32,000 nucleotides of DNA from Pyrodictium occultum (GCF_001462395.1 NZ_LNTB01000001.1:300001-332000), one strand, 5' to 3'. Counted from the stretch's first letter, positions 5,801 to 28,706 are shown. Numbers and translations are program-made. The notes: generated by a model not told the origin, from the sequence alone.

Positions 5801-6709
5801 ATGGAGCTGGGCCTAGTCTTCCTCGGCACCGGCGCCGCCCTGGCAGCCAGGCACCGCGGCCTCCCCTCCATAGCCCTCGTCTACCGCGGCAGCATAGTCC
5901 TCCTCGACTGCGGCGAGGGAACCCAGCACACCCTGGCCAGGGCCGGCCTAAGCCCCCTAAAGGTCGAGGCAGTGCTGATCACCCACCTCCACGGCGACCA
6001 CGTCCTCGGGCTCCCCGGCCTCCTCCAGACAATGGCCATGCAGGGCCGCAGGAGGCCACTCCTCGTAGCAGGCCCACCCGGCCTAAAGGAGCTGATCGAG
6101 GCAGCGTCAAAGCTCACCCACTGGCTCCCAAGCTACCCCATATACATCGCCGAGCCGGCACCCTGGCAGACCCTCCACCTCCCCAGCGGCCTAGAAGCAA
6201 AAACCTTCCCAGCCGACCACACCGTGCCAGCCCTAGGATATAGGATCCAGGAGCCCAGGAGAAAACCCAGAATAAACCTCGAGAAAGCACGGAAGCTAGG
6301 CCTACAGCCAGGACCCCAGCTAGCAAGACTACAGCGAGACGAGCCAGTAAGAATAGGCACCAAGATAATATACCCGGAAGACGTGGTAGAGGAGAAGCCA
6401 AGAGCATCAATAACTTACACCGGGGACACAAGGCCAAGCCAGGCAACGATAAAGGCAGCCAAACACACAACAATACTGATCCACGACTCCACCTTCACCA
6501 GCGAATACGCCCGCGAAGCCCACGAGAAAGGCCACAGCACAGCCAAGGACGCAGCAACAATAGCAAAGCAGGCGGGAGCACAGCTACTAATACTAACCCA
6601 CATCAGCGCCCGCTACAGGACAACACGCCCCCTACTCGACGAAGCCCGGAGAATATTCCCCAGGACAATAGCAGCAGAGGACCTAGCCAAACTACCAATA
6701 CGGCCATAA
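5801..6709 (+). CDS. rnz: Ribonuclease Z (tRNA 3' endonuclease, short ElaC form)
   Basis: The motifs LGTGAA...LLDCGEGTQHTL...ITHLHGDHVLGLPGLLQTM, ...GDTRPS..., LIHDSTF..., GHSTAKDAA..., LTHISARY give the full MBL/RNase Z motif set. A TATA-like ggttttgatacc lies about 45 nt upstream. Confidence 0.9.
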   Translation: MELGLVFLGTGAALAARHRGLPSIALVYRGSIVLLDCGEGTQHTLARAGLSPLKVEAVLITHLHGDHVLGLPGLLQTMAMQGRRRPLLVAGPPGLKELIEAASKLTHWLPSYPIYIAEPAPWQTLHLPSGLEAKTFPADHTVPALGYRIQEPRRKPRINLEKARKLGLQPGPQLARLQRDEPVRIGTKIIYPEDVVEEKPRASITYTGDTRPSQATIKAAKHTTILIHDSTFTSEYAREAHEKGHSTAKDAATIAKQAGAQLLILTHISARYRTTRPLLDEARRIFPRTIAAEDLAKLPIRP

Positions 6710-6743
6710 ACCCAGCCCCTCCGGGGTTGCGGGCTGGGGGTTT
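6708..6743 (+). terminator. Hairpin directly after the rnz stop codon
   Basis: cccagccc (6711-6718) pairs perfectly with gggctggg (6731-6738) around a 12-nt loop. It is flanked by aaa/ttt and followed by tttg. Confidence 0.4.
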
Positions 6744-6947
6744 GCCGGCTGTGTGTTTGGCCTGGTGTGGCTCGTCTCCGGCTTGTTGCTCCCCGTGATG
6801 TGGTGCTTCCGCCTGCTAGCAGTAAGGTTGTGAAGTCCCTGGTTCTCCAGCGTGGCGGGTGGCTGGCTGGGCTCGCCTCGCCGAGGCAGGGCTACAAGCC
6901 GCTGTTCATCTCCATGCTGTACCGGGGTGGGAGGCACCTCTACGCGA

Positions 6948-10857: not shown

Positions 10858-10869
10858 CGGAAGCCCCTG

Positions 10870-12941: not shown

Positions 12942-13024
12942 GACTCCCTCAGCCTCCGCACGGGTGCCTCCGGGTGGACGCGTCCCCGAGGGTTAAGGAT
13001 GCAGCCCCGGAGCGGCCGGTGCTG

Positions 13025-13771: not shown

Positions 13772-13773
13772 GG

Positions 13774-14643: not shown

Positions 14644-14770
14644 GCCGCTGCACCCCCTGGAGCGGCCGCTGGAGAGCCGCCGGCAGGCCAGCCACAGGGA
14701 GGAGTCCCGGGCTAGCGGTGAACCCGGCTCATCTCCGCCCAGCCTCCGCGTAGCCCACGCCCAGCCCACA

Positions 14771-14780
14771 GGATTTAAGG
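14771..14780 (-). promoter_or_regulatory. TATA-like box (minus strand CCTTAAATCC) upstream of hisG
   Basis: It is the only AT-rich element between the stop of the upstream gene (14795) and hisG. It sits about 130 nt upstream of the proposed TTG start, implying a 5' leader of about 100 nt. Confidence 0.3.
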
Positions 14781-14794
14781 CTGAGCCCCCGGGG

Positions 14795-15538: not shown

Positions 15539-15554
15539 GCCCCCCGGGGTCTCG

Positions 15555-15611
15555 TTAACACGGCTGTTTTAACAAGGAGCGCTCCACGCGTTATAGAACC
15601 CGCTTAATAAC
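15555..15611. promoter_or_regulatory. Divergent promoter region with three AT-rich boxes
   Basis: gttaacacggctgttttaac (15554-15573). Its minus-strand TTAAAA lies about 27-34 nt from the ATG at 15538, which suggests a leaderless transcript. ttatagaa (15591-15598) and cttaataa (15603-15610) lie about 40-55 nt upstream of the ATG at 15650. Confidence 0.4.
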
Positions 15612-15649
15612 CGCCCCGGGGCCCCGGCCCGCCATGGGTGCAGGCCTGG

Positions 15650-17020
15650 ATGACGGACAGGCGCGAGTTCCTTAAGGCCCTCGGCGCCGGCGTAGCCGGT
15701 CTCATAATAGGCGCCGGGCTCGGCTACGGGCTCCGGGGCGGCGGGGGCGGCCAGGCCGGGACGCTGACCGAGACCAGGACGGTGACCGTCACCAGGACGG
15801 CGGCCGCCGGGGCCCAGGCCGGCGGGGCCGGGGGGAGGCTCAGGGCGCTCTGGGTCTACGTGGGCCCCATAGGCGACTACGGCTGGACCCACGCGCACGA
15901 CGTCGGGAGGAGGAACGCTGAGAGGATTCTCCACGGCCTCGTGGAGACCAAGTACCTGGAGAAGGTGGCCGAGGACCAGGCCTACCAGGCTATAAAGCAG
16001 GCGCTCGAGCAGGAGCGCTTCGACGCCGTCTTCGCCACCAGCTACGGCTTCATGGACGCTGTGAAGAGGCTGGCCAGGGAGTACCCAGATGTGACGTTCT
16101 ACCACTGCAGCGGGCCCTGGGAGGAGTTCGCGGACCTGCCCAACGTGGTGACCTACTTCGCCGAGTTCTACCAGCTCTACTACCTCAACGGGATAGCCGC
16201 CGGCGCCGTGACCAAGACCTGCAGGGTAGGCTACGTGCCCGCCTTCCTGACCCCAGAGGTGGTGCGCCACATAAACGCCTACGCCATGGGCTCCGTCCAC
16301 GGCGCCAAGCTTATGGGCAAGTGCGGGAACGGGGAGAAGCTGGAGATCTATGTCTCCCCGCCCCTGCACGCCTGGTTCAACCCCGACAAGGCCCGCCAGT
16401 ATGCCGAGACCCTGATCAACCAGTACAAGGTAGACGCTATAGCCTACACCGAGGACTCGACGGCGGTGCTAGAGACGGCTGCAGAGTACGGGGTCTACAG
16501 CTTCAGCCACTACAGCAACATGCTCGAGTACTTCACCAAGGGGAAGGGCTCTTCGAGCCCTATAGCGAAGAGGATAGCCAAGTACCACCTCACCGGCCAG
16601 GTGGCCGACTGGACCCCGATCTACGTCTACCTCCTGGCCAAGAATATAACCGGGACGGCCAGGAAGGAGGACATCTGGGCCAGGATAGGCGACTTCGTCC
16701 CGATAAGGTGGAGGAGGCCGGTCAGCGAGTCCACGGCCGGCCGGCATGAGGGCGCTGTCTACCTGGCGCCCCTCAATACCCAGGCGATACCCGCCAAGGC
16801 CCTGGAGGAGATAAAGAGGCTCTACGAAGACATGAAGGAGCTGCTCTTCGAGCCCTACACGGGCCCGATAAGGGGCTACACCATAGACCCCGCGAGCGGC
16901 AAGAAGACCGGCGACGTGGAGGTCAAGGTGCCGCCGGGGACCCGCTGGGGCCGCAACGAGCTCTGGAGCCCCAAGACGATGAACTGGTTCTACGAGAAGA
17001 TAGTCACTCTGGCCGGCTAG
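15650..17020 (+). CDS. BMP/PnrA-family (basic membrane protein, nucleoside-type) ABC substrate-binding protein with a Tat signal
   Basis: MTDRREFLKALGAGVAGLIIG is a twin-arginine signal. It is followed by a Thr-rich linker (TLTETRTVTVTRT), then a BMP-like body (LWVYVGPIGDYGWTHAHD...). The track start at 15638 (GTG) is also possible. No permease or ATPase lies nearby. Confidence 0.78.
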   Translation: MTDRREFLKALGAGVAGLIIGAGLGYGLRGGGGGQAGTLTETRTVTVTRTAAAGAQAGGAGGRLRALWVYVGPIGDYGWTHAHDVGRRNAERILHGLVETKYLEKVAEDQAYQAIKQALEQERFDAVFATSYGFMDAVKRLAREYPDVTFYHCSGPWEEFADLPNVVTYFAEFYQLYYLNGIAAGAVTKTCRVGYVPAFLTPEVVRHINAYAMGSVHGAKLMGKCGNGEKLEIYVSPPLHAWFNPDKARQYAETLINQYKVDAIAYTEDSTAVLETAAEYGVYSFSHYSNMLEYFTKGKGSSSPIAKRIAKYHLTGQVADWTPIYVYLLAKNITGTARKEDIWARIGDFVPIRWRRPVSESTAGRHEGAVYLAPLNTQAIPAKALEEIKRLYEDMKELLFEPYTGPIRGYTIDPASGKKTGDVEVKVPPGTRWGRNELWSPKTMNWFYEKIVTLAG

Positions 17021-17023
17021 CCC

Positions 17024-17051
17024 GGGGAGGGGCCTCTTTTTCACCCTCCCC
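17024..17051 (+). terminator. Hairpin with an internal T5 run just after the BMP gene stop
   Basis: ggggaggg (17024-17031) pairs with ccctcccc (17044-17051). The loop gcctctttttca contains the T-run (17037-17041) typical of archaeal termination. Confidence 0.5.
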
Positions 17052-17086
17052 CAGCGCCCTCTAACACCCCCGGTGTAGGCCTCGCC

Positions 17087-17965
17087 TTGAAGGGGGACGC
17101 GGCTGGCAGCATCATATCGCTGCTCTTCTGGCTGCTCCTGCTGATAGCGCTGATGGAGCCCGCGCTCAGCGTGCGCAGGCTCCAGGCGGCCAGGCTCTCG
17201 CTGATAAAGAATATGGAGAGGAAGTACGGCTGGCGCGTGGTGACGATGATACACAGGGAGGAGAGGGTCACGTTCTTCGGCATCCCCCTGCAGAGGTTCA
17301 TAGACATAGACGACTCGGAGGCGGTGCTCCGCGCCATAAGGACGACCCCGCCCGACAAGCCGATAGCGCTGATACTCCACACCCCCGGCGGCCTGGTGCT
17401 GGCGGCAAGCCAGATAGCGATGGCCCTGAAGAGGCACCCGGGGCGGAAGATAGTGATAATCCCCCACTACGCTATGAGCGGCGGCACCCTGATAGCGCTG
17501 GCCGCCGACGAGATACTGATGGACCCGAACGCGGTGCTGGGGCCCCTCGACCCCCAGCTCTCCCTGGGCCCCCAGGGGCCCGTGGTGCCGGCCCCCAGCG
17601 TGCTCCGGGCCGCGGAGGTTAAGGGCGACAAGGCCAGCGACACAACGCTCATAATAGCTGATATAGCGAGGAAGGCTATAGCGGAGATGCAGGAGACAAT
17701 AGTAGAGCTGCTCCGCGACAAGATGGGCGAGGAGAGGGCCAGGGAGATCGCCAAGACGCTGACGGAGGGCAGGTGGACCCACGACTATCCGATAACCCCG
17801 GAGAAGGCCAGGGAGCTGGGCCTCCCGGTGAAGACCGAGGTGCCCCCGGAGGTCTACGAGCTGATGGAGCTCTATCCCCAGGCGCCGGGCAACAGGCCAG
17901 GCGTCGAGTTCATCCCGCAGCCGCTGCCCCACCAGCCGCCGCACCGGGGCCACAGCGGCAAGTAG
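17087..17965 (+). CDS. Membrane-anchored ClpP-fold serine protease (SDH / DUF114, NfeD/SppA-like)
   Basis: N-terminal TM (IISLLFWLLLLIALM), then the family core VVTMIHREE..., ILHTPGGLVLAASQIA, IIPHYAMSGGTLIALAADEILM. TTG start. Confidence 0.72.
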   Translation: MKGDAAGSIISLLFWLLLLIALMEPALSVRRLQAARLSLIKNMERKYGWRVVTMIHREERVTFFGIPLQRFIDIDDSEAVLRAIRTTPPDKPIALILHTPGGLVLAASQIAMALKRHPGRKIVIIPHYAMSGGTLIALAADEILMDPNAVLGPLDPQLSLGPQGPVVPAPSVLRAAEVKGDKASDTTLIIADIARKAIAEMQETIVELLRDKMGEERAREIAKTLTEGRWTHDYPITPEKARELGLPVKTEVPPEVYELMELYPQAPGNRPGVEFIPQPLPHQPPHRGHSGK

Positions 17966-17997
17966 GCGGCCCCTCCAGCCCCGCGGGGATAAGGGGG

Positions 17998-18468
17998 TTG
18001 CAGCTGGTCCTGCTCGCGGGCTCGGGCAGCGGCGTGGGGAAGACGCTGCTGGGCACGATGCTCGTGGAGGAGCTTAGGCGCCGGGGGCTGAGGGTGGGGG
18101 TGGTAAAGCACGTCCACCACGGCGTGGACTATAGGGTGAAGGACACTGGCCGCTACCTCGAGGCCGGGGCCTCCAGGGTGGTGGCGGCGGGGCCCGGCGA
18201 GTACATGCTCGTCGAGCCCGCGGCGCTCGGCTTCTGGGACGCCGTCAGGCTCCTCGGGGAGGTCGACGTGGCCGTGGTGGAGGGGTTCCGCCTCCACATA
18301 GGCGAGGCCGTCTCGAAGGGCGGGTGCGTGGTCTATATAGACGCCTCCAGGGCCGAGCCCCTGGCCAGGGGGAGGCTGGTGGAGGCCTGCCCGGGCTGCC
18401 TCGGGGCCGCGCTGGAGGCGGTCCTGGGCCTGCTGGGGGAGGGGGGCTGCAGCGTCGGGGAGGTGTAG
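17998..18468 (+). CDS. mobB: Molybdopterin-guanine dinucleotide biosynthesis adapter protein MobB
   Basis: (L)QLVLLAGSGSGVGKTLLGTMLVEEL (P-loop), GVVKHVHHGVDY..KDTGRYLEAGA. I trimmed the track ORF (17773) to the in-frame TTG at 17998, because the upstream part overlaps the protease gene. Confidence 0.72.
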   Translation: MQLVLLAGSGSGVGKTLLGTMLVEELRRRGLRVGVVKHVHHGVDYRVKDTGRYLEAGASRVVAAGPGEYMLVEPAALGFWDAVRLLGEVDVAVVEGFRLHIGEAVSKGGCVVYIDASRAEPLARGRLVEACPGCLGAALEAVLGLLGEGGCSVGEV

Positions 18469-18472
18469 CGGC

Positions 18473-19315
18473 TTGCCCGCGCCGGCGGGGGCCCTGGGGC
18501 TGGCCTCCAGGATACTCGAGGAGCTGGACAGGGGCGAGGAGCTGGCCTCGGGGACCCGCACGCTCCGGCTGCACTCGCTCCTCGTAGCGCACTACGCCTC
18601 CCTCATAGCCTCCAGGCTCGGGCTGGACCCCGTGGCCTACTACCTGGCCGGCCTCCTCCACGACTACGGGAAGCTCGAGGCCCGTGAGAGGGGGCTCGAC
18701 GAGGACGAGTACACCGCCGAGAAGGCCGCGGGGCTCCTGGAGGTGCTAGGCGCCCCGGAGGAGCTGGCCCGCAGGGTGGCCGGGATCCTCCGCAGGGGCG
18801 CCCGCCGCGACCCCGTCCTCGGCGACGCGGATGTGCTGGCCAAGCTCGGGCTCCAGGGGGTGGCCCAGTTCATAGCGAAGTGGACCGCCCGGGGCAGCAG
18901 CCTGGCGGAGATGCTGGTCGAGGGGCTCCCCAGGGAGCTGACCGTGGCGCTCAACCCCCGCCTCTACCTCTGCACCGGGCCTGCGAGGGAGGCCGGCGAG
19001 CGGCTCGCCGGGGAGGCGGTGGAGGCCTACACCCGGCTCCTCGAGGAAGCCGAGGAGGCGCTGGGCCTGGGCCTGCGCCTCGTCGAGGAGAGGGTGGAGG
19101 GGGTGAGAGCGGTCTTCGTGGCCGTCGAGAGGTGCCCCCGGTGCCTCTCCCCCGGGCTGGAGAGGAGGCTGGAGCCCCACAGGGGCAGGCTCTGCAGGGG
19201 GCTCAGGATGGTGCACCGCTGCCCCCGCTGCGGCTGGGCCGGGCGCGGGGGCGTCTGCCTGCCATGGAGGCGCTGCGGGCCGGGGGAGCCCACAACAACC
19301 CCCGGCCCCGCCTAG
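18473..19315 (+). CDS. HD-domain phosphohydrolase with a C-terminal CPRC...CPRC zinc ribbon
   Basis: LRLHSLLVAHYASLIASRLG...YLAGLLHDYGK gives the H...HD metal site. The C-terminal RCPRCLSPG...HRCPRCGW supplies four Cys. It lies 4 nt after mobB and 21 nt before moaDE. Confidence 0.62.
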   Translation: MPAPAGALGLASRILEELDRGEELASGTRTLRLHSLLVAHYASLIASRLGLDPVAYYLAGLLHDYGKLEARERGLDEDEYTAEKAAGLLEVLGAPEELARRVAGILRRGARRDPVLGDADVLAKLGLQGVAQFIAKWTARGSSLAEMLVEGLPRELTVALNPRLYLCTGPAREAGERLAGEAVEAYTRLLEEAEEALGLGLRLVEERVEGVRAVFVAVERCPRCLSPGLERRLEPHRGRLCRGLRMVHRCPRCGWAGRGGVCLPWRRCGPGEPTTTPGPA

Positions 19316-19336
19316 GGGGTTCCGGGCCTGGCAGCT

Positions 19337-20002
19337 ATGCGCTGCAGGGCAAGGGTTGTGGGGCTTGTGGACGGCCGCCCCGTGGACGGGGAGCGGGCCG
19401 CCGAGGCCTCCACCGCGGGGGAGCTACTCGAGGGCCTCGGGCTCCAGGGGAGGGCCGCGGTCTACGCCTCGGGGAGGAGGCTGGAGCCGGGCGACAGGCT
19501 CCCGGAGGGCTGCAGGGGCGTAGCGGTGCTGGCGCCCCCGCCCGGGGTGCTGGTGGCGAGGCTCGCCGGGCCCGGGGAGAGGGTGGACCTGGACCAGCTG
19601 GCCGGCCTCATGGCAGCCCGCGCGGCCCTTCTCGGCGGGGGAGCCCTCGTAGCCTTCATGGGGTTCGTCAAGGGCGTCGTCGACGGCGCGGAGGTGGCGA
19701 GCCTGGAGTACGAGGCCGTGGAGCCCCATGCCTCCAGGAGGCTGCGCGAGCTGGCGGAGCGCTACGCCTCGGCCCCCGGCGTGATAGACGTGGCGGTCAT
19801 CCACCACTACGGGCCCCGCCGGCCCGGCGACCCCACGGTCTACGTGCTCGTCACCGCCGAGACCCGGGGCGTAGCCTTCCACGCGGCCGCCCTCCTCCTC
19901 GAGGAGGTGAAGCACCGGGCCCCCATCTACAAGCTGGAGCGCCGCAGCGACGGGGACTACTGGGTCCTCGGGGACGGGGCCCGCCTACCCCGCAGAGGCT
20001 AG
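19337..20002 (+). CDS. moaE: Molybdopterin synthase: MoaD/ThiS-like beta-grasp fused to the catalytic subunit MoaE
   Basis: The first about 70 aa are beta-grasp-like (VDGRPVDGE..AGELLEGLGL....RLEPGDRLPEGCRGVAVLAPPPG). The MoaE part follows (GALVAFMGFVKG...VASLEYEAVEPHA..., VIHHYG.RRPGDPTVYVLVTAETRGVAFHAA..LLEEVKHRAPIYKLE). Confidence 0.78.
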   Translation: MRCRARVVGLVDGRPVDGERAAEASTAGELLEGLGLQGRAAVYASGRRLEPGDRLPEGCRGVAVLAPPPGVLVARLAGPGERVDLDQLAGLMAARAALLGGGALVAFMGFVKGVVDGAEVASLEYEAVEPHASRRLRELAERYASAPGVIDVAVIHHYGPRRPGDPTVYVLVTAETRGVAFHAAALLLEEVKHRAPIYKLERRSDGDYWVLGDGARLPRRG

Positions 20003-20289
20003 CCCCTCCACCGCCCCGTGGCCAGCCTCTCGACCGCCTCGACGAGCCTCTCCACGAGCCCCAGGGCCTCCTCCTATCAACCAGGCCCTAGACCCGCTCA
20101 GCGCGGCGTAGCCACTCACAGCCAGCCCCGCCGCCCGGACCCCGCTCCGCAGCCCTCCCCGCGTCACCCCGCGCCAGCGCCTCCCGCGCCTCCCCAAGAG
20201 CCAGCCGGGCGGCCTCCACCAGGCCCCGCGCAGCAACCCCCCGGGGGCGCGCCGCTGAGGAGGGAGAGCACGTACTCGTCAACACTCAT
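19999..20289 (-). pseudogene. Decayed PaREP1/HEPN-like helical protein gene (at least two frameshifts)
   Basis: Minus-strand pieces in three frames join into one helical protein: MSVDEYVLSLLSGAP / RGVAARGLVEAARLALGEAREALARGDAGRAAE / RVRAAGLAVSGYAALSGS / EALGLVERLVEAVERLATGRWRG*. The L..A...L..GD...AAE...A core resembles archaeal PaREP1/HEPN proteins. The family assignment comes from pattern memory only. Confidence 0.35.
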
Positions 20290-20860
20290 GCCCAGCCCCT
20301 CCGCCGCCCCCGAGGGCTTGAAGCAGGCTACGCCGGAGGCCCCAGCTCCTCAGCCCAAAACCCTAGCCCACAGCCAGCCCTCCCCATCGGGGACGGGCGC
20401 GAGCAGAAGCAGCCGGCCCCAGCCACACGCCCCCTCCTCCCCGCTAGCCTCCCCGCCCACAGCAACCCGGAGCGGGGGCGCAGACACCTCGAAGGGAGGC
20501 CCCACCACACGCCCCAAGCCCAGAGGACAGCCGGCAGCACGAAGAACAACAACCTCCCCACGCCCACGCAGCACAAGCCGCATACCAGGAGGCTTCACAG
20601 CAAGCCAGCCAGCACCAAGAGAGAAGCCGTTAGCCCACACAGCACCACGCAGAACTAGAACAAGAACACAGCCACCACGCCCAAAAACAACACTATCCCC
20701 ACCAAGACCCAGAAGCCTAGCCAAACCATCCCTAACGAGACCAGCCAGGGATAATACCCAGCCACCCCCGCAGCCACAGCCACACCAGGAGCCACAAAAA
20801 GCCCCCTAGTAAACCAAACGCTCAAACCCCCAACCCATCCACAGCCCCCACCCCAGCCAG

Positions 20861-20953
20861 CTTCCAATTCCATTTATTTGATTCCGAAGAGCGAGAAGGA
20901 GCGCGCCTGCTCCTCCGAGCCGTAGTGCTCCCGATTCTATCAATTCCTCTTCG
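20861..20953. promoter_or_regulatory. AT-rich core with four RATTCY direct repeats and a small GC hairpin (candidate bidirectional promoter or unwinding element)
   Basis: cttccaattccatttatttgattccgaa (20861-20888) is the most AT-rich tract I see in the window. Repeats: AATTCC 20866-71, GATTCC 20880-85, GATTCT 20933-38, AATTCC 20942-47. A hairpin ggagc/gctcc spans 20898-20913. Confidence 0.35.
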
Positions 20954-21280
20954 TTTAGGCTCCGCTCCGTTTCTGCTCCTGACTCCCGTGTTTTGGGGTT
21001 GTGGGTGGTTGCTCCTCGGCCTCGTACTCGGGGCATGTGCTTTGCTACGTGGCTCCATCGCCGGGCATCGGTGTTGGCCCGTGTTGCCAGAAGGGGGCTT
21101 CATTGCTCTATAGCTCTGCCTACCCGCCGGGCTCCGCGCCTCACGCCCCAGCCGCCGTGGCCGGGTGCGGGGCCGGCAGCCCGCGCCGCCGGGCCAAGGA
21201 TAGGGACCAGCCCTCCTCCCAGCCTCCACCCAGATCTCGGGTTCCTACAGCGCCTGAATCCAAGCAAAGCAAAGAGAATT

Positions 21281-21302
21281 GGGAGAGGGGGTTGGGTGTG
21301 GG
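21281..21302 (+). other. Canonical G-quadruplex motif (G3+N1-7)x4
   Basis: gggagagggggttgggtgtggg has G-tracts of 3, 5, 3 and 3 with loops AGA, TT and TGT. A mirror-positioned motif lies on the minus strand at 20827-20854 (GGGG T GGGGG CTGTGGAT GGG TT GGGGG). Confidence 0.5.
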
Positions 21303-21371
21303 CTGGTGCTTCTGCTGGGTGCTGTGTTGCCGGTTCTGTGCCTCCTCATCCTCTCTGCGGTGGGGGTTGTC

Positions 21372-22670
21372 TTAGCCGTGGTTTGTGGGGTTTTTGTTGC
21401 CGGTTTTTGCCTCGCCTCTTCCTAGGAGACGGTGGGCTCTGGCTAGCTCGTTGGCTGCTAGGGCTGCTAGGAGGTTTAGCTCTCCTGCTAGTACTGCTGC
21501 TGCTGTTACCTCTGCTAGTTTCTTGGCGTTGGCGCCTGGGGGGTTTCCTCCACCGGCTGCTCCTAGGAGGGCTAGGGCTTCCCGCTGAGTCGGGAGCCTT
21601 GTTCCGCCTCCGACTGTGCCTAGCTCGAGGCTGGGGAGGGTTACCGATATGTAGAGGTCTCCGTTTCTCACCTCGGTCCAGGTGTAGCCCATGCTGCTCT
21701 CCACTACCTGTGCCACGTCCTGGCCGGTGGCGATGAATATGGCTGCTATTATGTTGGCGTAGTGGGCGTTGAAGCTTGGGCTTCCCGCCCTGGCGCTGCC
21801 GAGGAGGTTCTTTACCCTGTTCACTGTGTCTATGTCCTCGGGCGCCGCCTTCAGCACCCTGAGGGCTATGTCCCGCTTTATGGTGGCTTCTGCTACCACT
21901 GTCTTGCCGCGGCCTAGGATCGCGTTGAGGAGGGCTGGCTTCTTGTCGGTGCAGAGGTTCCCGCTTATTGCTATCAGCTTCGCCTCGCCGGGGTAGTTGC
22001 GGAGTATCCACTCGGCCGCCTTGTCGGTCGCAATGGTTGCCATGTTCATGCCCATAGCGTCGCCGGTGCTGTAGACGAAGCGGAGCCAGACTATGTTCCC
22101 GGCTATGAAGGGCTGGATCTCGAGCAGCCTCCCGTGGCGGGTGGTGGACTCGGCCTCCCTCCGCACCTCCTCCATGTGCTCCTGGACCCATTCGGCGAGC
22201 CGGGCCGCCTCCTCCACCCCGGGGGTCCAGAAGACGGGGGCCCTGGCCATCCCGTCGCGGAGCACCCGGGCCCGGGCCCCGCCGCTCAGCGTCACCGCCT
22301 TGGCCCCGCGGTTGACGCTGGCCACCAGCGCGCCCTCGGTGGTGGCGAGGGGGATGTAGAAGTCGCCTCGGGCGTACTCGCCGTGGACCCGGAGGGGCCC
22401 GGCGACCCCCAGGGGGATCTGGACCGCGCCTATGGGGTTCTCTATGTTCCTCCCCACCAGCTCCTCGAAGTCGAGGATGGTGCTGCCGATGCTCGAGAGC
22501 CCGACGCCCAGCATCCTCTCCAGCGCCAGCCTCCGCGCCAGCGCGGCGGCGTTGGCGTTCCCCAGCAGCCGGTCGGCCTCGTGGAGCCGGATCCTGCCCT
22601 CCACTATGCCCTGGACTACCTCCTCGAGCCTATCCCGGAGGGAGCGCTCCTCCCCCAAGGAGCGGTGCAC
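21372..22670 (-). CDS. hmgA: 3-hydroxy-3-methylglutaryl-CoA reductase (class I, archaeal)
   Basis: [48 protein letters not shown], ...GTVGGGT.... 432 aa, 57 nt downstream of the DUF35 gene. Confidence 0.92.
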
Positions 22671-22727
22671 ACCCTCGGCTGGCTGGGGCGCCGTGGAGGT
22701 ATTAGGCGTGCCCCGGGGGCCGGGGGC

Positions 22728-23162
22728 TCACCCCTGGCTCCGCCGCGTCCTGGGCTCCCGGAGGGCTGGGCGGAAGGCGATGCCGTAGGCTATGAGGCCG
22801 TGCTCGCCGTCGCGCCTTATCCTGCGGAGCACCGCCTCAACCCTCATACCGGTCCGTATCTCGCCGGGCTCGACGTCGGTGAGCGGGGCCAGCACCCTGG
22901 TGCCGTCGTCCAGCCTGACCACGGCCACCGGGTGGGGCGCCCTGTCCCGGAACCCGTCCATCACAGTGTATATCACCGCGTAGGTCTCGACCACGCCGGT
23001 GCGGGGCAGCTCGACCTCCTCGAGCTCCCTGGAGCCGCAGTAGGGGCAGGCCGGCCGGGGCGGGTAGTGGCGGCGGCCGCAGCGCCTGCACTGCCTGCCG
23101 GCCAGACGGTAGCGGGGTATGCGCTCCCTCCAGACCCTCGCGGGGGATATGCGCAGGGCCAC
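22728..23162 (-). CDS. DUF35 OB-fold / zinc-ribbon protein (scaffold of the archaeal thiolase-HMG-CoA synthase complex)
   Basis: RLAGRQCRRCGRRHYPPRPACPYCGS is the Zn ribbon, followed by an OB-fold (GVVETYAVIYT..., VAVVRLDDGTRVLAPL). It is positioned between the thiolase gene and hmgA. Confidence 0.85.
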   Translation of the reverse strand: MALRISPARVWRERIPRYRLAGRQCRRCGRRHYPPRPACPYCGSRELEEVELPRTGVVETYAVIYTVMDGFRDRAPHPVAVVRLDDGTRVLAPLTDVEPGEIRTGMRVEAVLRRIRRDGEHGLIAYGIAFRPALREPRTRRSQG

Positions 23163-23186
23163 TGCTCCCGGGCCTCCCTCCAGCCC

Positions 23187-24350
23187 CTAGGCGTGGCGCA
23201 GGATAAAGGCTGTGAGGGTTGAGCCGTCGCCGCCCATGTTAACCGCTATCCCCGTCTCGGCCCCCTCGACCCGGACCCCGGGGAAGTCGCCGCGGATCTG
23301 CATCGCCACCTCCGCCACCTGGTAGACGCCGGTGGCGCCGACAGGGTGGCCCCTGGCCTTGAGGCCGCCGCTGGGGTTGAGGGTCGGCCGGTCCCCGGGG
23401 CGGAACCTCCCCTCCGCCAGCGCCCTGGCCGCCTTGCCCCTCTCGGCGAAGCCCAGCTCCTCTATGAGGAGTATAGCGTTTATCGTAAAGGCGTCGTGTA
23501 TCTCGCCCACGTCTATGTCCTCGGGCCTCACCCCTGCGGCGCGGAGGGCCTGCTCGGCCGCCATCCTGGCGGCGGGGATCCGGTCGAGGGCCTCCCGGCT
23601 GCCCAGCTCCACCGTGTCGGTGGCCGCCCCGGCCCCGGCTATGTAGACGCTGGGCTTCTCGGGGAGCTTCGAGGCAAGCTCCTCGGAGACGAGGAGGACG
23701 GCGGCGGCCCCATCGCCTATCGGGCTGCTGTCGAGCAGCCTTATCGGGTCGGCCACCACCTGGCTCCTCGCCACGTCCTCCCTGGTTATCCTCCTGCGGA
23801 GCTGCGCGTAGGGGTTGATGAGCGCGTTCTCGTGCATCATCACCGGCCACTCGCTCATCGTGTCCCGGTCGACGCCGTACCGCTCCATGTAGTACCTCAT
23901 CATGAGGGCGTTGAGCCCGGTGAAGCTAGCCCCGTAGAAGAGCTCATACTCCGCGTCCGCCGCCTGCGCCAGCGCCGAGGTGACGGTGGAGGTGGGGTAG
24001 TCGGTCATCTTCTCCACGCCGACCACGAGCACGCTGTCCACGAGCCCGGAACGCACCATGGCGTAGCCGGTGTAGAGGCCGGCGCCACCGCTGCCGCAGG
24101 CCGCCTCCACGTGCAGGGCGGGCCTCCCCCTCAGCCCTATCCCCGAGGCTATGTAGGCGCCGAGGCTGTCCTGCTCCTGGAGCCTGCTGGCCAGCATGTT
24201 GGTGACCACCACCGCGCCGGGCTCCACCCCAGCCTCGTCGATCGCCCTGAAAGCAGCCTCGGCCGCGAGGTCGAGGAGGCCGCGGCCGTAGTGGCGCCCG
24301 ACCCTGGTCACGCCGACCCCGGCCACGTACACCCTGGCCACCGCTCCCAC
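23187..24350 (-). CDS. Acetyl-CoA C-acetyltransferase (archaeal thiolase)
   Basis: VYVAGVGVTRVGRHY..., AACGSGGAGL (active-site Cys), ...NPSGGLKARGHPVGATG..., 387 aa. Confidence 0.9.
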   Translation of the reverse strand: MGAVARVYVAGVGVTRVGRHYGRGLLDLAAEAAFRAIDEAGVEPGAVVVTNMLASRLQEQDSLGAYIASGIGLRGRPALHVEAACGSGGAGLYTGYAMVRSGLVDSVLVVGVEKMTDYPTSTVTSALAQAADAEYELFYGASFTGLNALMMRYYMERYGVDRDTMSEWPVMMHENALINPYAQLRRRITREDVARSQVVADPIRLLDSSPIGDGAAAVLLVSEELASKLPEKPSVYIAGAGAATDTVELGSREALDRIPAARMAAEQALRAAGVRPEDIDVGEIHDAFTINAILLIEELGFAERGKAARALAEGRFRPGDRPTLNPSGGLKARGHPVGATGVYQVAEVAMQIRGDFPGVRVEGAETGIAVNMGGDGSTLTAFILRHA

Positions 24351-24353
24351 CCT

Positions 24354-25433
24354 CTAAGCTATCCTCGTGTAGAGTCCCCTCATCTTAGCGTAGACCGCGT
24401 AGTCCACGTACCTCTTCGCCTCCATGTAGTCGTCCACGCTGGGGGCCCGGCCCCTCCTCTCCTCTATCCTGTCGGTGACCAGGAAGCTGTAGGCGTCGCT
24501 GCCCGCGCCGCTGCCGAAGGGGGCTAGGAGTATCCTCTGCCCGGGCCTAGCCTGGTCCAGCACCCTGGCGAAGCCGAGGAGGGCGCTGGCGTTGTATGTA
24601 TTGCCTATCCTGGGGGTGACAAGGCCGGGGAGCACCTTCTCCCTGGGGAAGCCGAGCCTCTGAGCCACCCGCAGGGGGAACCTCCCGTTGGGCTGGTGGA
24701 AGACGGCGTAGTCGAAGTCGCCGGGGCGCAGCCCGAGCCTCTCCATGAGCCCCTTCACCGCGCTCTCTATGTGGTGGAAGTAGGCCGGCTCGCCGGTGAA
24801 CCCCTCGCCGTGGAGGGGGTAGGGGCTGTGGGCGCCCCTCCAGAAGTCGGGGGTGTCGGTCACGTAGGTGTAGACGCCCTCCAGCACCGCGACGCTGTCG
24901 CCCGAGGGCCCGACGACGAGGGCCGCCGCGCCGCTCGCGGCGGTGAACTCCAGCACATCCCCGGGGCTGGCCTGCGCCGTGTCGGAGCCTATCACCAGCG
25001 CGTACTCCACGTGGCCCGCCTCCACCAGGGCCAGGGCGGAGCGGAGCCCCTCGCTGGCGGCGCGGCAGGCGAACTCCAGGTCGGAGGCCATGGTCTCGGG
25101 TGTCACCCCGAGCGCCTCGGCCACTATGGTGGCCGAGGGCTTCACCGCGTAGGGCTTCGACTCGGTGCCGAAGAAGACGGCGCCTATTCTCCCAGGCTCC
25201 ACGCCGGCCCTGGCTATAGCGTTGAGCGCCGCCTCCACGCCCATAGTGACCGAGTCCTCGTCTACGCCCGCAACAGCCTTCTCCTCCACGCCGAGGCTCC
25301 TGGGGACGCTGGGCTCCCAGCCCCAGACCCTAGCTATCTCCTCGGCCTTAACCCTGTAGCGGGGCACGTAGGCGCCCCAGCCTGCTATGCCGCTGCCCCG
25401 CGCCAAGACAGGCACGCCATGCACGCCGGGCAT
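24354..25433 (-). CDS. Hydroxymethylglutaryl-CoA synthase (archaeal)
   Basis: MPGVHGVPVLARGSGIAGWGAYVPRYRV..., FACRAASEG (Cys), VFHQPNGRFP, IGNTYNASAL. I trimmed the track ORF (to 25652) to the ATG at 25433, because the upstream 73 codons are Trp/Arg/Pro junk overlapping the neighbouring gene fragment. Confidence 0.9.
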   Translation of the reverse strand: MPGVHGVPVLARGSGIAGWGAYVPRYRVKAEEIARVWGWEPSVPRSLGVEEKAVAGVDEDSVTMGVEAALNAIARAGVEPGRIGAVFFGTESKPYAVKPSATIVAEALGVTPETMASDLEFACRAASEGLRSALALVEAGHVEYALVIGSDTAQASPGDVLEFTAASGAAALVVGPSGDSVAVLEGVYTYVTDTPDFWRGAHSPYPLHGEGFTGEPAYFHHIESAVKGLMERLGLRPGDFDYAVFHQPNGRFPLRVAQRLGFPREKVLPGLVTPRIGNTYNASALLGFARVLDQARPGQRILLAPFGSGAGSDAYSFLVTDRIEERRGRAPSVDDYMEAKRYVDYAVYAKMRGLYTRIA

Positions 25434-25477
25434 GGCCGGGGCGTGGTAGAAGAGCCCTTCCCCTCCAGCAGTAGTCG

Positions 25478-25490
25478 AATACCTTTTTAG
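25478..25490 (-). promoter_or_regulatory. TATA-like box for the mevalonate operon (minus strand CTAAAAAGGTATT)
   Basis: It is the only AT-rich element upstream of the HMG-CoA synthase ATG, about 45-55 nt away. Confidence 0.4.
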
Positions 25491-25530
25491 ACGATAGACG
25501 TAGCGGCCCCGTGGCAGCGCCAGGGCCCGC

Positions 25531-26366
25531 CTAGCCCGCCGCGCCGCAGGCCCGGTGGGCGGTCTCCACCACGAGGGCGGCGTAGCGGGCGGGGCCCAGC
25601 ACGTCCACCGCCTCCACGTGGCCCGCGCCCGGCAGCTCCACCAGGCGGCCACAGGGGCTGAGCCCGGCTATCTTCCCCGCCTCCTCCCTCGTCACCAGGG
25701 GTCGCGGCCGCCATGGATCACGAGGAGCGGCTTATCCAGCTTCCTCACCTCGGCCGGGCCGAAGCCGGCGTCTATACCGTAGAGCGCTGAGGCGTAGGCG
25801 GCGGCGAGGCTGCCGATCCAGCCGGGCAGCGGCGTCTTGTACTCGATCCACCTGGGGACCACCAGGCGGAGGCTGTAGTAGGGGCTATCGGCCACCACCG
25901 CGTAGACCCTCGGGTCCCTGGAGCCCTCCACCACCGCCACCGCCGCCCCCATGCTGAAGCCAACCAGCGCTATCCTCTTATGGGGGAAGCGGGAGGCTGT
26001 GTAGCCCACCACCGCCTCGGCGTCCAGCACCTCCCTGGGCCCGATAGTGGTGGTGCCGCCGCTGAGCCCGTGGCCCCGGAAGTCGAAGACCACCACCGGG
26101 TACCCCATGGAGACCAGCTGCCTGGCTAGCAGCATCACGTAGTGGGAGCTGCGGCAGCCGGTATAGCCGTGCATCAGTATGAACACCGTGTCGCCGGGCC
26201 CCTGGGGGTTGAGCACCCAGCCCCTCAACACCACGCCGTCCCTCGTCGACACGTTGAAGTCCTCGTGGCTCGTCCAGCCCGGCGGCTGGCCCGGCCTGCA
26301 GCGGGCGGGGTGGAGGCCGCTGTAGGCCACGTAGAGCGGGAGAGCGGCCAGCAGGACGATCGCCAC
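25531..26366 (-). pseudogene. Alpha/beta-fold serine hydrolase, split by a 1-nt frameshift in a C4 run (coding strand)
   Basis: The first frame (26366..25692) has an N-terminal anchor, HGYTG, the nucleophile elbow GFSMGAAV, and ends ...LLVIHGGRDPW*. The adjacent frame continues LVTREEAGKIAGLSPCGRLVELPGAGHVEAVD...*, carrying the catalytic-His motif, down to the stop at 25531-25533. The slip is at gggg 25698-25701. Confidence 0.7.
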
Positions 26367-26484
26367 GGCGGCCGCGGCGGCCGCCCCTGCCCTGGCGGCA
26401 CGGCTAGCCAGGCCCGGCCACCCCCGGGCTTACAGGGTAGCGGGAAGGCGAAATATTACAGCGCCGGGGCCGCGGGCCCCCTTC

Positions 26485-28662: not shown

Positions 28663-28672
28663 GACGGCGGCC

Positions 28673-28706
28673 CCTCTAGCCCCCAGGGCTGTCGCGGGGC
28701 TAGAGG
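28673..28706. promoter_or_regulatory. Perfect 11-bp inverted repeat in the divergent intergenic region
   Basis: cctctagcccc (28673-28683) and ggggctagagg (28696-28706) flank a 12-nt spacer, 11 nt upstream of the GT-C start. A 10-bp palindrome tacatatgta lies at 28797-28806. Confidence 0.3.

What the first reader, a model, noticed from the sequence alone, without database searches (positions are those of the whole stretch)
20003..22150. Strand-composition inversion at about 20.9 kb: T-starved left arm, A-starved right arm running about 0.7 kb into hmgA
Left of about 20,880 the + strand is A+C-rich and almost T-free (hand count for 20581-20640: A20 C21 G14 T5). Right of about 20,920 it is G+T-rich and almost A-free (21301-21360: A1 C18 G20 T21).

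The right arm continues through roughly the 3' half of hmgA (minus strand). Sense codons there end in A (aga, cta, gga, gca, aaa, aca; tail [23 protein letters not shown]). The 5' part of the same gene (beyond about 22,150) uses the G/C-ending codons seen everywhere else. The protein stays family-typical, so this looks like a mutational bias filtered by selection.

On both sides, the strand reading 5'->3' away from the switch point is C-poor and G/T-rich. Strand-specific cytosine deamination of the outward-reading strand would produce this. That polarity is expected at a replication origin or around strong divergent transcription with R-loops, and is the opposite of what sense transcription of the converging genes would give. 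I know of no described archaeal feature with kb-scale, near-total skew at converging gene ends.
Basis: partly seen in the sequence, partly recalled or inferred. Interest (0 to 1): 0.8.

Follow-up and report, generated by a model that had tools for sequence, protein, structure and literature searches.

The report
Strand-specific mutation patches in Pyrodictium
In the genome of Pyrodictium occultum (grows at 105 °C), two short stretches have had nearly every G on one strand turned into A on one side of a point and nearly every C turned into T on the other, which looks like the footprint of one DNA strand being repeatedly left unpaired and chemically deaminated.

Summary
The left arm is a stronger keto/amino-skew outlier than any 200-nt window in about 1.3 Mb of 80 related archaeal loci. 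An independent read set reproduces the hmgA end of this locus, from 21,059 rightwards.

The window is from Pyrodictium occultum PL19. A second locus has the same geometry, with its switch near 6,710 at the 3' end of an RNase Z-like gene.

At four-fold sites the last 83 hmgA codons read A32 C23 G2 T3, against A209 C2644 G2080 T275 in 26 other genes. A Cas6_N-like ORF just right of the second switch is T-rich on its own sense strand. So the bias follows the DNA strand, not the coding sense. A is also depleted on the G+T-rich strand, so both deamination-type transitions hit the same strand.

The closest relatives lack the patches, and the protein gives no sign of foreign origin. The 3' end of hmgA shows the same bias in several other Desulfurococcales.

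Polarity fits outward transcription with R-loops, or origin-like initiation. No origin hallmarks were found.

Both loci are tandem: upstream gene end, intergenic switch, downstream unit. The mechanism is inferred, not shown.

The parts
20400..20865 (-). Locus 1, left arm core. The + strand is A+C-rich, so the minus strand, reading outward, is G+T-rich (C->T and A->G on the minus strand). It holds only unsupported minus-strand ORFs, e.g. 20655-20873 (72 aa).
   Evidence: - Composition of 20500-20880 is A130 C162 G61 T28, with skew down to -0.62.
- Pfam found no supported family for ORFs on either strand; the only match at E<=1 is a chance-level 0.11.
- There are 5 runs of three or more G in the first 60 nt of the outward strand, against a background mean of 1.6.
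20003..20399 (-). GC is normal (75-78%), and the + strand is C-rich and T-poor. It is probably a frameshifted PaREP1-like remnant on the minus strand and is only weakly part of the phenomenon.
   Evidence: - Composition profile and six-frame translation.
- A hand-merged reading frame hits PaREP1 (PF05942) at E 0.002 and 18.5 bits, below the 24.4-bit cut-off.
20866..20906 (.). Locus 1 switch. It consists of an AT-rich 19-mer, AATTCCATTTATTTGATTC, followed by a purine-rich 20-mer. It is a candidate bidirectional TATA-like element.
   Evidence: - It is the longest AT-rich stretch in the window and the only WTTTAWW match in the 32 kb on either strand.
- 20-nt composition bins flip here.
20907..21100 (+). 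Locus 1, right arm, first segment. It is non-coding, A-poor and C/T- to G/T-rich on the + strand.
   Evidence: - 20-nt bins contain 0-3 A each.
- There is one C/T difference between the two strain assemblies at 21,100.
21101..21272 (.). Compositionally normal island that interrupts the right arm (GC about 0.72; C-rich on the + strand). It ends in the T-rich tract TTCTCTTTGCTTTGCTT on the hmgA sense strand, a likely hmgA terminator.
   Evidence: - Composition: G 0.28 and C 0.42 on the + strand.
- Folding z-score 0.06, so no sign of structure.
- No Rfam match.
- Sequence read directly.
21273..21371 (+). Locus 1, right arm, second segment: the hmgA 3' untranslated stretch. It has the peak G+T richness on the + strand and starts with the G clusters GGGAGAGGGGGTTGGGTGTGGGCTGG.
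   Evidence: - 21280-21420 = A4 C29 G55 T53.
- 5 runs of three or more G in the first 60 nt.
21372..21995 (-). 3' 208 codons of hmgA (HMG-CoA reductase), with sense-strand G->A at synonymous sites. The gradient rises towards the stop codon.
   Evidence: - A3/T3 per 25 codons runs 04/00 07/00 05/00 06/00 05/00 11/02 14/00 11/01.
- Four-fold sites in codons 351-433 are A32 C23 G2 T3.
- The protein is 100% identical to P. occultum HMG-CoA reductase.
6050..6709 (+). Locus 2, left arm: the 3' two-thirds of an RNase Z-like metallo-beta-lactamase gene (5801-6709), with sense-strand G->A at synonymous sites.
   Evidence: - Pfam Lactamase_B_2 at 1.2e-21.
- A3/T3 rises to 12-13 per 25 codons with T3 of 0-1.
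- Four-fold sites in codons 101-303 are A51 C41 G12 T1.
- Reproduced by run DRR667394; run SRR5453782 is also identical but may be the reference's own reads.
6707..6743 (.). Locus 2 switch: the RNase Z stop codon, then a hairpin CCCAGCCC / GGGCTGGG, then a T-run. TTTAT lies on the minus strand at 6706.
   Evidence: - Sequence and 20-nt bins.
- Terminator-like hit at 6732-6750.
- TTTAT positions.
6720..6850 (+). Locus 2, right arm. The + strand is G+T-rich. It covers the start of a truncated Cas6_N-like ORF (6767-6997) whose first 30 codons are T-ending.
   Evidence: - Pfam Cas6_N (PF17952) at E 1.9e-11.
- Four-fold sites in codons 1-30 are A0 C5 G7 T12, and in codons 31-77 A0 C11 G12 T3.
- Bins contain 0-1 A per 20 nt.

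Best explanation
**What is shown.** Two intergenic points (about 20,880 and about 6,710) are each flanked by patches of 0.1-1.1 kb. In these patches the strand reading 5'->3' away from the point has lost most of its C (to T) and most of its A (to G). These are the two changes produced by hydrolytic deamination of single-stranded DNA (C->U, A->hypoxanthine). Where a patch lies in an essential gene, only synonymous sites are converted, so the protein stays normal.

**What is inferred.** The outward strand is recurrently exposed as single-stranded DNA, over many generations at about 105 °C, as the non-template strand of transcription leaving an intergenic promoter in both directions. One direction is the sense transcript of the downstream unit. 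The other is an upstream antisense transcript running back into the 3' end of the upstream gene.

G clusters at the start of the arms would favour R-loops. Loss of C from the displaced strand would make R-loops still more stable, so the effect reinforces itself and becomes extreme locally. The C-rich island at 21,100-21,270 would not form R-loops and so stays normal.
For: **Strand level, not codon level**
- Four-fold sites in hmgA codons 351-433 are A32 C23 G2 T3, and in RNase Z codons 101-303 A51 C41 G12 T1. In 26 other genes they are A209 C2644 G2080 T275.
- The Cas6_N-like ORF right of switch 2 is T-rich on its own sense strand (A0 C5 G7 T12).
- In relative L007, Pfam-validated genes on opposite strands show mirrored third positions.

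**Both amino bases lost from the same strand**
- 21280-21420 has A 3% and C 21%. 20500-20880 has T 7% and G 16%.

**No strict sequence motif**
- Conversion is CpR > CpY, with GpC least affected. This fits chemistry better than a motif-specific deaminase.

**Arithmetic from established rate constants (own knowledge)**
- C deamination in single-stranded DNA near 100 °C runs at roughly 1e-7 to 1e-6 per second.
- One exposure therefore cannot convert over 50% of sites, so exposure must recur, or an enzyme must act.

**Gradient and geometry**
- Conversion is strongest next to the switch and decays outward.
- Both loci are tandem, with the switch in the spacer upstream of the next unit.

**Promoter-like features**
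- The only WTTTAWW match in the window sits at switch 1.
- There are 5 G3+ runs in the first 60 nt of two arms, against 1.6 in the background.

**Wider trend**
- A strict third-position scan finds A/C-type patches mostly in 3' parts of genes and G/T-type patches mostly at 5' ends in thermophilic archaeal loci.
- In 179 non-hmgA Desulfurococcales genes, A3-T3 shifts by +0.041 +/- 0.010 from the first to the last third (p = 3e-5).

**Lineage-specific and real**
- The patches are absent from hmgA and RNase Z of the closest relatives.
- Both gene patches are reproduced in an independent assembly, DRR667394.
Against: - No transcript data exist. The two long arms need antisense transcripts that are purely hypothetical.
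- Ordinary sense transcription of the other 26 genes leaves no comparable mark. Four-fold T is 5% and C exceeds G on the sense strand. Transcription alone is therefore not enough, and something special such as R-loops must be invoked.
- G clustering is unremarkable at locus 2.
- The TATA-like evidence is weak, and the AT-rich element could equally be a terminator.
- The A/C-rich zones end exactly at the likely terminators of hmgA and RNase Z. A transcript-level selective explanation would also predict this.
- The same bias recurs at the hmgA 3' end in many lineages with different downstream neighbours. That points to something intrinsic to hmgA which this model does not explain.
- Both switches sit at synteny breakpoints relative to the nearest relatives. 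A rearrangement-linked event is therefore not excluded.
Confidence: 0.4

Rival explanations
1. Origin-like initiation. The switches are sites where DNA synthesis starts in both directions (a replication origin, or R-loop- or recombination-primed initiation). The lagging-strand template or a long-lived nascent strand on each side is then exposed and deaminated.
For: - The polarity is exactly that of an origin: A+C-rich to the left and G+T-rich to the right on the + strand.
- Relative L007 shows that very strong DNA-strand-level asymmetry of this keto/amino type exists over at least 16 kb in this group, independent of gene orientation.
- Switch 1 carries the most AT-rich stretch of the window.
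Against: - Two such points lie only 14 kb apart.
- There is no ORB-like motif: TTCCANTGGAAA with up to 2 mismatches gives 0 hits.
- No Orc1/Cdc6 family turned up among the window genes scanned with Pfam or carrying Pfam calls on the matching Logan contigs, although genes left of 5,244 were not scanned.
- The asymmetry dies out within about 1 kb, and background four-fold sites are the same for + and - strand genes. A real origin should leave a replichore-scale signal.
- The normal island at 21,100-21,270 is hard to explain.
Confidence: 0.12
2. Selection on the transcripts. The 3' parts of the hmgA and RNase Z mRNAs are kept G- and U-poor, and therefore unable to fold. This could serve loading of a termination or 3'-processing factor, or RNA survival at 105 °C. 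The complementary composition next door would be a separate coding or RNA effect.
For: - The A/C-rich zones stop at the stop codon and hairpin (RNase Z) and at a T-rich tract 100 nt past the stop (hmgA).
- The same bias recurs at the hmgA 3' end in several genera whose synonymous sites have largely diverged (L005 A54 G10 T3; L006 A65 G1; L008 A71 G0; L001 A42), with the flip near codon 200-250.
- Third-position identity gives no sign of recent transfer.
Against: - It does not explain the mirrored G+T-rich arms in non-coding DNA and in a truncated pseudogene-like Cas6_N ORF.
- It does not explain L007, where the bias follows the DNA strand.
- A span of 0.6-1 kb is far longer than any known factor-loading site.
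- Only 2 of 28 genes in the window show it.
- The context dependence is the same in coding and non-coding arms.
- The closest relatives lack it.
Confidence: 0.12
3. One-off event tied to genome rearrangement. Single-stranded intermediates of break repair or break-induced-type synthesis at the two junctions of the 14-kb segment separating hmgA from RNase Z were heavily deaminated, possibly enzymatically. This would be a kataegis-like cluster.
For: - In the nearest relatives hmgA and RNase Z lie 3.6 kb apart on the same strand.
- In P. occultum RNase Z is inverted and a 14-kb segment (his operon and others) lies between them.
- Both switches coincide with these synteny breaks.
- The changes are strand-coordinated and switch strand at a point, as in clustered mutation.
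Against: - The polarity is the opposite of 5'->3' resection at a break. It would need outward new-strand synthesis from both junctions (reasoned from the sequence).
- Conversion of over 80-90% of sites cannot come from one heat exposure (rate constants, own knowledge).
- A is converted as well as C, and there is no strict motif.
- Other synteny breaks in the window carry no patch.
- The hmgA 3' bias recurs in lineages without this rearrangement.
Confidence: 0.1
4. Recombinant tract imported from a lower-GC relative whose hmgA 3' end and RNase Z already had A-ending, T-avoiding codons.
For: - GC drops from about 73% to about 60% inside the patches.
- Several relatives have hmgA 3' ends of just this composition.
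- The highly conserved mid-gene motif would be a natural crossover point.
Against: - The protein of the 3' half is still closest to the Pyrodictium clade: 82-86% and 88-90% identity, with no shift relative to the 5' half.
- The nearest sequences in 5.8 billion proteins are 86% identical or less.
- Third-position identity is no higher in the 3' half than composition predicts.
- A donor would also need the mirrored arms and the gradient.
Confidence: 0.05

Closest known systems
Transcription-associated mutational strand asymmetry (C->T on the non-transcribed strand in E. coli, Beletskii & Bhagwat 1996; G+T excess on the coding strand of mammalian genes, Green et al. 2003; own knowledge)
   Same: - Same two substitution types (C->T and A->G) on one strand, giving a G+T-rich non-template strand.
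- The Cas6_N-like ORF and the left-arm unit are G+T-rich on the strand that reads outward.
   Different: - The effect here is near saturation, confined to 0.1-1.1 kb, and absent from the other 26 genes.
- The two longest arms are antisense to the genes they lie in.
R-loop-prone GC-skewed regions and AID-type promoter-proximal hypermutation in vertebrates (G-cluster initiation zones, Roy & Lieber 2009; own knowledge)
   Same: - G clusters at the start of the G-rich outward strand.
- Decay over about 1 kb from a promoter-like point.
- The displaced strand is the mutated one.
   Different: - No deaminase motif, and A is lost as well as C.
- This is an archaeon at 105 °C.
- No R-loop has been shown.
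Replication-associated skew switch at bacterial and archaeal origins (Lobry 1996; own knowledge)
   Same: The sign of the switch, and the keto (G+T) enrichment of the strand that reads away from it.
   Different: - Kilobase scale rather than replichore scale.
- Two switches 14 kb apart.
- No ORB motif and no Orc1/Cdc6 gene found nearby.
Strand-coordinated mutation clusters (kataegis) from damaged single-stranded DNA (Roberts et al. 2012; PMC6786661 turned up in a search, but was not read; own knowledge)
   Same: Strand-coordinated C->T runs that change strand at a point.
   Different: - Those are single somatic events with sparse mutations and the opposite switch polarity at resected breaks.
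- Here the result is a fixed, near-saturated, selection-filtered state of a genome.

Membership tests
Archaeal replication origin (oriC) | ORB or mini-ORB repeats flanking an AT-rich unwinding element | tested here: not met
   - TTCCANTGGAAA with up to 2 mismatches gives 0 hits in 32 kb.
- The only AT-rich element is 19 nt long.
- No inverted-repeat architecture around either switch beyond one 8-bp hairpin.
Archaeal replication origin (oriC) | Adjacent orc1/cdc6 or whiP gene | tested here: not met
   - Neighbouring genes scanned by Pfam or carrying Pfam calls on the matching Logan contigs: HD-domain protein, SDH protease, Bmp, the his operon, the mevalonate genes, RNase Z.
- No Orc1/Cdc6 family appeared.
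- The MoaE-like gene (19337-20002) and genes left of 5,244 were not scanned.
Archaeal replication origin (oriC) | Skew change persisting over the replichores | tested here: not met
   - Four-fold sites of + and - strand genes outside the patches are alike: C 52/G 38 against C 50/G 41 on the sense strand.
- 6 kb beyond the window is also normal.
Archaeal replication origin (oriC) | Initiation shown by marker frequency or 2D gels | not testable with these tools
   Needs experiments.
Transcription/R-loop-associated strand asymmetry | The G+T-rich strand is the non-template strand of a transcript | tested here: inconclusive
   - Met for the Cas6_N-like ORF.
- Plausible for the left-arm minus-strand frames.
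- The arms inside hmgA and RNase Z need unproven antisense RNAs.
Transcription/R-loop-associated strand asymmetry | Promoter at the switch | tested here: inconclusive
   - The only WTTTAWW match in the window is at 20,872.
- TTTAT lies on the minus strand at 6,706.
- No archaeal promoter model was available, and the sigma-70 scan is irrelevant.
Transcription/R-loop-associated strand asymmetry | G clusters at the start and G density along the displaced strand | tested here: inconclusive
   - Locus 1 arms have 5 G3+ runs per 60 nt, against a background of 1.6. Only 2.4% of windows reach 5 or more.
- Locus 2 arms have 2-3.
Enzymatic cytosine-deaminase hypermutation (APOBEC/AID-like) | Strict dinucleotide target motif, and C only | tested here: not met
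   - Conversion occurs in all contexts (CpR > CpY, GpC least).
- A is depleted on the same strand.
Horizontally acquired or recombinant tract | Discordant phylogeny or a near-identical donor | tested here: not met
   - Per-segment protein identity shows no shift.
- The best non-self hit is 86% identical.
- Third-position identity shows nothing unusual.
Codon-usage (translational) selection | Bias follows the sense strand of genes | tested here: not met
   - Mirrored bias in the Cas6_N-like ORF and in Pfam-validated minus-strand genes of L007.
- The same bias appears in non-coding arms.

The most novel reading that the evidence does not exclude
Hyperthermophilic Desulfurococcales carry fixed, self-reinforcing hot zones of single-stranded DNA: R-loop or non-canonical initiation sites. 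Heat-driven deamination of C and A on one strand there outruns repair and rewrites every tolerated site. One such zone has persisted at the 3' end of hmgA across genera. These patches would be natural in-vivo footprints of where DNA is unpaired at above 100 °C. They would also mark where the archaeal uracil/hypoxanthine read-ahead proofreading of family-B polymerases is bypassed.
Probability: 0.25. Interest if true: 0.8.

Novelty: new variant of a known kind. Interest (0 to 1): 0.62.

Why it matters
How organisms growing above 100 °C keep cytosine and adenine from deaminating is a long-standing question. Archaeal polymerases even stall at template uracil and hypoxanthine.

These patches show places where that protection has failed on one strand only, almost to saturation, inside essential genes. 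They give a sequence-level read-out of which strand is exposed, where, and over what distance.

If the cause is antisense transcription or R-loops, the patches predict unannotated transcripts and a conserved antisense unit at the key isoprenoid-lipid gene hmgA. If the cause is initiation of DNA synthesis, they mark non-canonical start sites.

Either way the prediction can be tested directly with strand-specific RNA-seq, R-loop mapping and marker-frequency sequencing of a cultivable type strain.

There is also a practical point. Such stop-poor strands inflate gene calls. That may be one reason 3,360 genes were predicted for this 1.6-Mb genome (PMC4767911); this link is my conjecture and was not tested.

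Tried and rejected
- **tRNA and Rfam scans.** Nothing found in the window or in 19,900-21,500 at E<=1 apart from a chance miRNA hit.
- **Coding test of the arms.** Pfam on eight ORFs in 19,985-21,375 found nothing. tblastn of all ORF pieces of 35 aa or more against 84 loci gave no hit outside P. occultum itself.
- **Search for an un-mutated ancestor.** A purine/pyrimidine-alphabet BLAST of the arms gave only noise.
- **Palindrome or inverted duplication of the arms.** Short complementary matches are out of register.
- **Structured RNA in the normal island.** Folding z-score 0.06.
- **Overlapping antisense gene in the hmgA 3' half.** Every antisense frame carries stops in every lineage.
- **tRNA genes as a general centre of such switches.** 24 tRNA flanks average 0.00. 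Only tRNA-Ala in L033 shows -0.55/+0.55.
- **Amino-acid composition as the cause of the hmgA flip.** The flip holds within each amino acid. In L005, Ala goes from A0 T15 to A11 T3.
- **Polarised amino-acid replacements.** Too few, and not clearly directional.
- **Strain differences as a sign of ongoing mutation.** There are 6 SNPs, all transitions, but only one lies in a patch.
- **Fetching more of the genome.**
  - The genome-contig scan did not return P. occultum.
  - Four exact-protein look-ups failed.
  - Only 6 kb beyond the window was added, and it contains no patch.
- **Literature.** Four searches found no description of such patches in archaea.


Full report
**Source and reality of the sequence**

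The hmgA product is 100% identical to HMG-CoA reductase of Pyrodictium occultum. The next best of 5.8 billion proteins is 86% identical. The published draft genome is 1.6 Mb with 63.4% G+C (PMC4767911), whereas this window has 70%.

An independent public read set assembled by Logan reproduces the critical parts:
- DRR667394 matches window 21,059-32,000 at 99.97% and 4,629-15,721 at 99.8-99.9%.
- SRR5453782 matches 4,629-8,899 at 100%, but it may be the read set behind the reference assembly, so I do not count it as independent.

The patches in hmgA and in the RNase Z-like gene are therefore not assembly artefacts. The stretch 15,722-21,058, which holds the left arm and the switch, could not be re-checked.

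**The observation**

Keto/amino skew (G+T-A-C) in 200-nt windows has mean -0.03 and sd 0.12 across the window.
- The left arm reaches -0.57 to -0.62 and the right arm +0.39.
- In 80 other archaeal loci fetched through hmgA (about 1.3 Mb), no 200-nt window exceeds 0.49 in absolute value, and 71 loci never reach 0.40.

Three refinements follow.
1. The converted core of the left arm is about 20,400-20,865. The stretch 20,003-20,400 keeps 75-78% GC.
2. The right arm is broken by a normal island at 21,100-21,270.
3. The arm enters hmgA to about codon 226, window about 21,995.

**A second locus**

The same geometry recurs at 6,050-6,850.
- The 3' two-thirds of an RNase Z-like gene (5801-6709, +; Pfam Lactamase_B_2 at 1.2e-21) is A+C-rich.
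- The 130 nt after its stop codon are G+T-rich.
- Of 28 genes examined, only these two show A-ending codons rising to 12-14 per 25 towards the 3' end with almost no T-ending codons.

**It is a DNA-strand effect of transition type**

Four-fold degenerate sites:

| Region | A | C | G | T |
|---|---|---|---|---|
| 26 other genes | 209 | 2644 | 2080 | 275 |
| hmgA codons 351-433 | 32 | 23 | 2 | 3 |
| RNase Z codons 101-303 | 51 | 41 | 12 | 1 |
| Cas6_N-like ORF, codons 1-30 | 0 | 5 | 7 | 12 |

- G has been replaced by A, while C is kept and T stays rare.
- At two-fold pyrimidine-ending codons, T is 1 of 70 inside the patches.
- The ORF 6767-6997 (+), just right of the second switch, matches the Cas6 N-terminal domain (PF17952, E 1.9e-11). 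Its first 30 codons show the mirror image on its own sense strand.
- The bias therefore does not follow the coding sense. It is G->A on the + strand left of each switch and C->T on the + strand right of it.
- A is also depleted from the G+T-rich strand (3% in 21,280-21,420; T is 7% in 20,500-20,880, against about 15% elsewhere). So A->G accompanies C->T on the same strand. These are the two products of base deamination.
- Conversion depends only mildly on neighbours (CpR > CpY, GpC least), and in the same way in coding and non-coding arms. That argues against a motif-specific enzyme and against codon choice.

**Anatomy**

- The + strand gene to the left (MoaE-like by eye; the family scan that would have checked it failed) ends at 20,002.
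- No ORF in the left arm or the spacer has a family match.
- By eye the minus strand of 20,003-20,290 reads like a frameshifted PaREP1-type gene. A hand-merged frame gives only a sub-threshold hit (E 0.002).

Read along the direction of hmgA, locus 1 runs as follows:
1. hmgA 3' half and 100 nt of trailer, A+C-rich on the sense strand.
2. A T-rich tract, the likely terminator.
3. The normal island.
4. A 190-nt A-poor stretch.
5. An AT-rich 19-mer, the only WTTTAWW match in the window.
6. A 460-nt stretch that is G+T-rich on the same strand.

Locus 2 runs RNase Z 3' part (A+C-rich sense), stop codon with hairpin, then the Cas6_N-like ORF (G+T-rich sense). Both loci are tandem, with the switch in the spacer ahead of the next unit.

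**Relatives**

In the closest available relatives (84% protein identity; L082-L084) hmgA and RNase Z lie 3.6 kb apart on one strand and carry no patch. In P. occultum RNase Z is inverted and 14 kb (his operon and other genes) lies between the two genes. Both switches therefore coincide with synteny breaks. Other synteny breaks in the window have no patch.

Several more distant Desulfurococcales show the same bias at the hmgA 3' end. Four-fold sites of the last 100 codons:

| Locus | Last 100 codons | First 200 codons |
|---|---|---|
| L005 (Aeropyrum MAG) | A54 C31 G10 T3 | A4 T30 |
| L006 | A65 G1 | A53 G15 T1 |
| L008 | A71 G0 | A45 G21 T0 |
| L007 | A58 G14 | A28 G31 T0 |
| L001 | A42 T7 | A10 T34 |

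- The flip lies near codon 200-250.
- It holds within single amino acids.
- It is not accompanied by raised third-position identity between lineages.
- It leaves no open antisense frame.

In L007, Pfam-validated genes on opposite strands have mirrored third positions over 16 kb. This shows that strong DNA-strand-level keto/amino asymmetry exists in this group.

A strict third-position scan of all loci finds A/C-type patches mostly in 3' parts of genes and G/T-type patches mostly at 5' ends. All of them are in thermophilic lineages. Across 179 non-hmgA Desulfurococcales genes the A3-T3 difference rises by 0.041 +/- 0.010 from the first to the last third (p = 3e-5).

**Mechanism**

What is shown: a strand-specific, selection-filtered excess of the two deamination-type transitions, on the strand that reads away from an intergenic point, decaying over 0.1-1.1 kb.

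What is inferred:
- Published rate constants for cytosine deamination in single-stranded DNA near 100 °C are about 1e-7 to 1e-6 per second (own knowledge). Conversion of over 80% of sites therefore cannot come from one exposure. Exposure must recur over evolutionary time, or an enzyme must act.
- Recurrent exposure of the outward-reading strand on both sides of a point is what divergent transcription gives (non-template strand, especially in R-loops). Bidirectional initiation of DNA synthesis gives it too.

I favour transcription with R-loops, for four reasons:
1. The switches sit in spacers ahead of transcription units.
2. One arm at each locus is the sense strand of the downstream unit.
3. 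Two arms begin with dense G clusters: 5 runs in 60 nt against 1.6 expected.
4. The island that escaped conversion is C-rich on the + strand, so it would not form an R-loop with a rightward transcript.

The weaknesses are serious.
- No transcript data exist.
- The other 26 genes carry no mark of their own transcription.
- The recurrence at hmgA in lineages with different downstream genes hints at a cause intrinsic to hmgA.

**Rivals**

- **Origin.** It has the right polarity but no ORB motif, no Orc1/Cdc6 family among the genes scanned, and no long-range skew. Two switches lie 14 kb apart.
- **Transcript-level selection for an unfoldable 3' region.** This would explain why the A+C-rich zones end at terminators and why hmgA shows it repeatedly. 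It does not explain the mirrored arms, the pseudogene-like ORF or L007.
- **Rearrangement-linked single event.** This fits the synteny breaks. It fails on polarity (opposite to 5'->3' resection), on the degree of conversion, and on the recurrence elsewhere.
- **Import from a lower-GC relative.** This is not supported. The 3' half of the protein stays closest to the Pyrodictium clade, and no donor exists among sampled sequences.
- **Amino-acid replacements.** Those polarised with sister and outgroup sequences are few and not clearly directional: 3' half 7 G>A against 4 A>G, 5' half 4 G>A. Selection has removed most non-synonymous hits.

**Novelty and verdict**

Four full-text searches found no description of kilobase-scale, near-saturated, strand-coordinated patches in archaea. 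A 2026 survey of archaeal skews treats only genome-wide curves (PMC12999951).

The phenomenon belongs to a known kind, mutational strand asymmetry from single-stranded exposure. Its intensity, its scale, its position inside essential genes of an organism growing at 105 °C, and its recurrence at hmgA are new as far as I can tell.

- The gene-arrangement claim is wrong.
- The cause remains inferred.

Noticed in passing
window 6767-6997 (+): A 76-aa ORF matches the Cas6 N-terminal domain (PF17952, E 1.9e-11) and stops after about two-thirds of that domain. It abuts the end of the convergent hisI-like gene. It looks like a stranded cas6 fragment, and no CRISPR array is visible nearby.
   Followed up: partly
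window 11413 (L086 6787-7767): The DRR667394 assembly of the same organism carries 981 extra bases at this point relative to the window, between his genes. The gene caller placed two small ORFs there (80 and 72 aa). This is either an insertion in that stock or a deletion in the reference. Four of the six SNPs between the two assemblies lie within 600 nt of it.
   Followed up: partly
window 4629 and 21059-21090: Both Logan assemblies (two different runs) break at exactly window 4,629. The DRR667394 contig that carries hmgA begins at 21,059, inside the right arm; where the neighbouring contig ends was not retrieved. These breaks may reflect repeats or population heterogeneity.
   Followed up: no
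window 4629-5160 (-): A lower-GC gene encodes a protein with a signal-peptide-like start (MRYTTLALAGLVASAAALALLAG...). It has no homologue in the hmgA neighbourhoods of relatives. It was not identified. Whether it relates to the cannula proteins of Pyrodictium was not tested.
   Followed up: no
L007 1-16371 (Thermoproteota MAG L_MetaBat.44): Over the whole 16 kb, third codon positions are T-poor (2-5%) and A-rich in + strand genes. They are A-poor (2-4%) and T-rich in Pfam-validated minus-strand genes. This is a very strong DNA-strand-level keto/amino asymmetry.
   Followed up: partly
L033 12330-12700 (Ca. Pelearchaeum MAG): A tRNA-Ala gene (12478-12549) is flanked by 150 nt of skew -0.55 upstream and +0.55 downstream. 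The 5' end of the divergent neighbouring gene is flagged as T-ending at third positions, and the downstream flank is G+T-rich. None of the 23 other tRNA genes examined shows this.
   Followed up: partly
L005 4723-5943 and L001 10001-11257 (hmgA): Within one gene the synonymous bias flips from T-rich/A-poor (four-fold A4 T30 in L005) to A-rich/T-poor (A54 T3) near codon 225. The flip appears for each amino acid separately.
   Followed up: partly
window 21372-25652 (-): HMG-CoA synthase, acetoacetyl-CoA thiolase, the DUF35-type OB-fold protein and HMG-CoA reductase form one co-directional cluster, and this order is conserved in most Pyrodictiaceae-type loci fetched. Only the last gene carries the bias.
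   Followed up: partly
window as a whole, against the published genome: The window and 6 kb beyond it have about 70% G+C and about 90% GC3, whereas the published genome average is 63.4%. Large parts of the genome must be much lower in GC than this region.
   Followed up: no
window against L085/L086: All six single-base differences between the reference and the DRR667394 assembly are transitions (positions 10818, 10937, 11316, 11524, 21100, 28348).
   Followed up: yes
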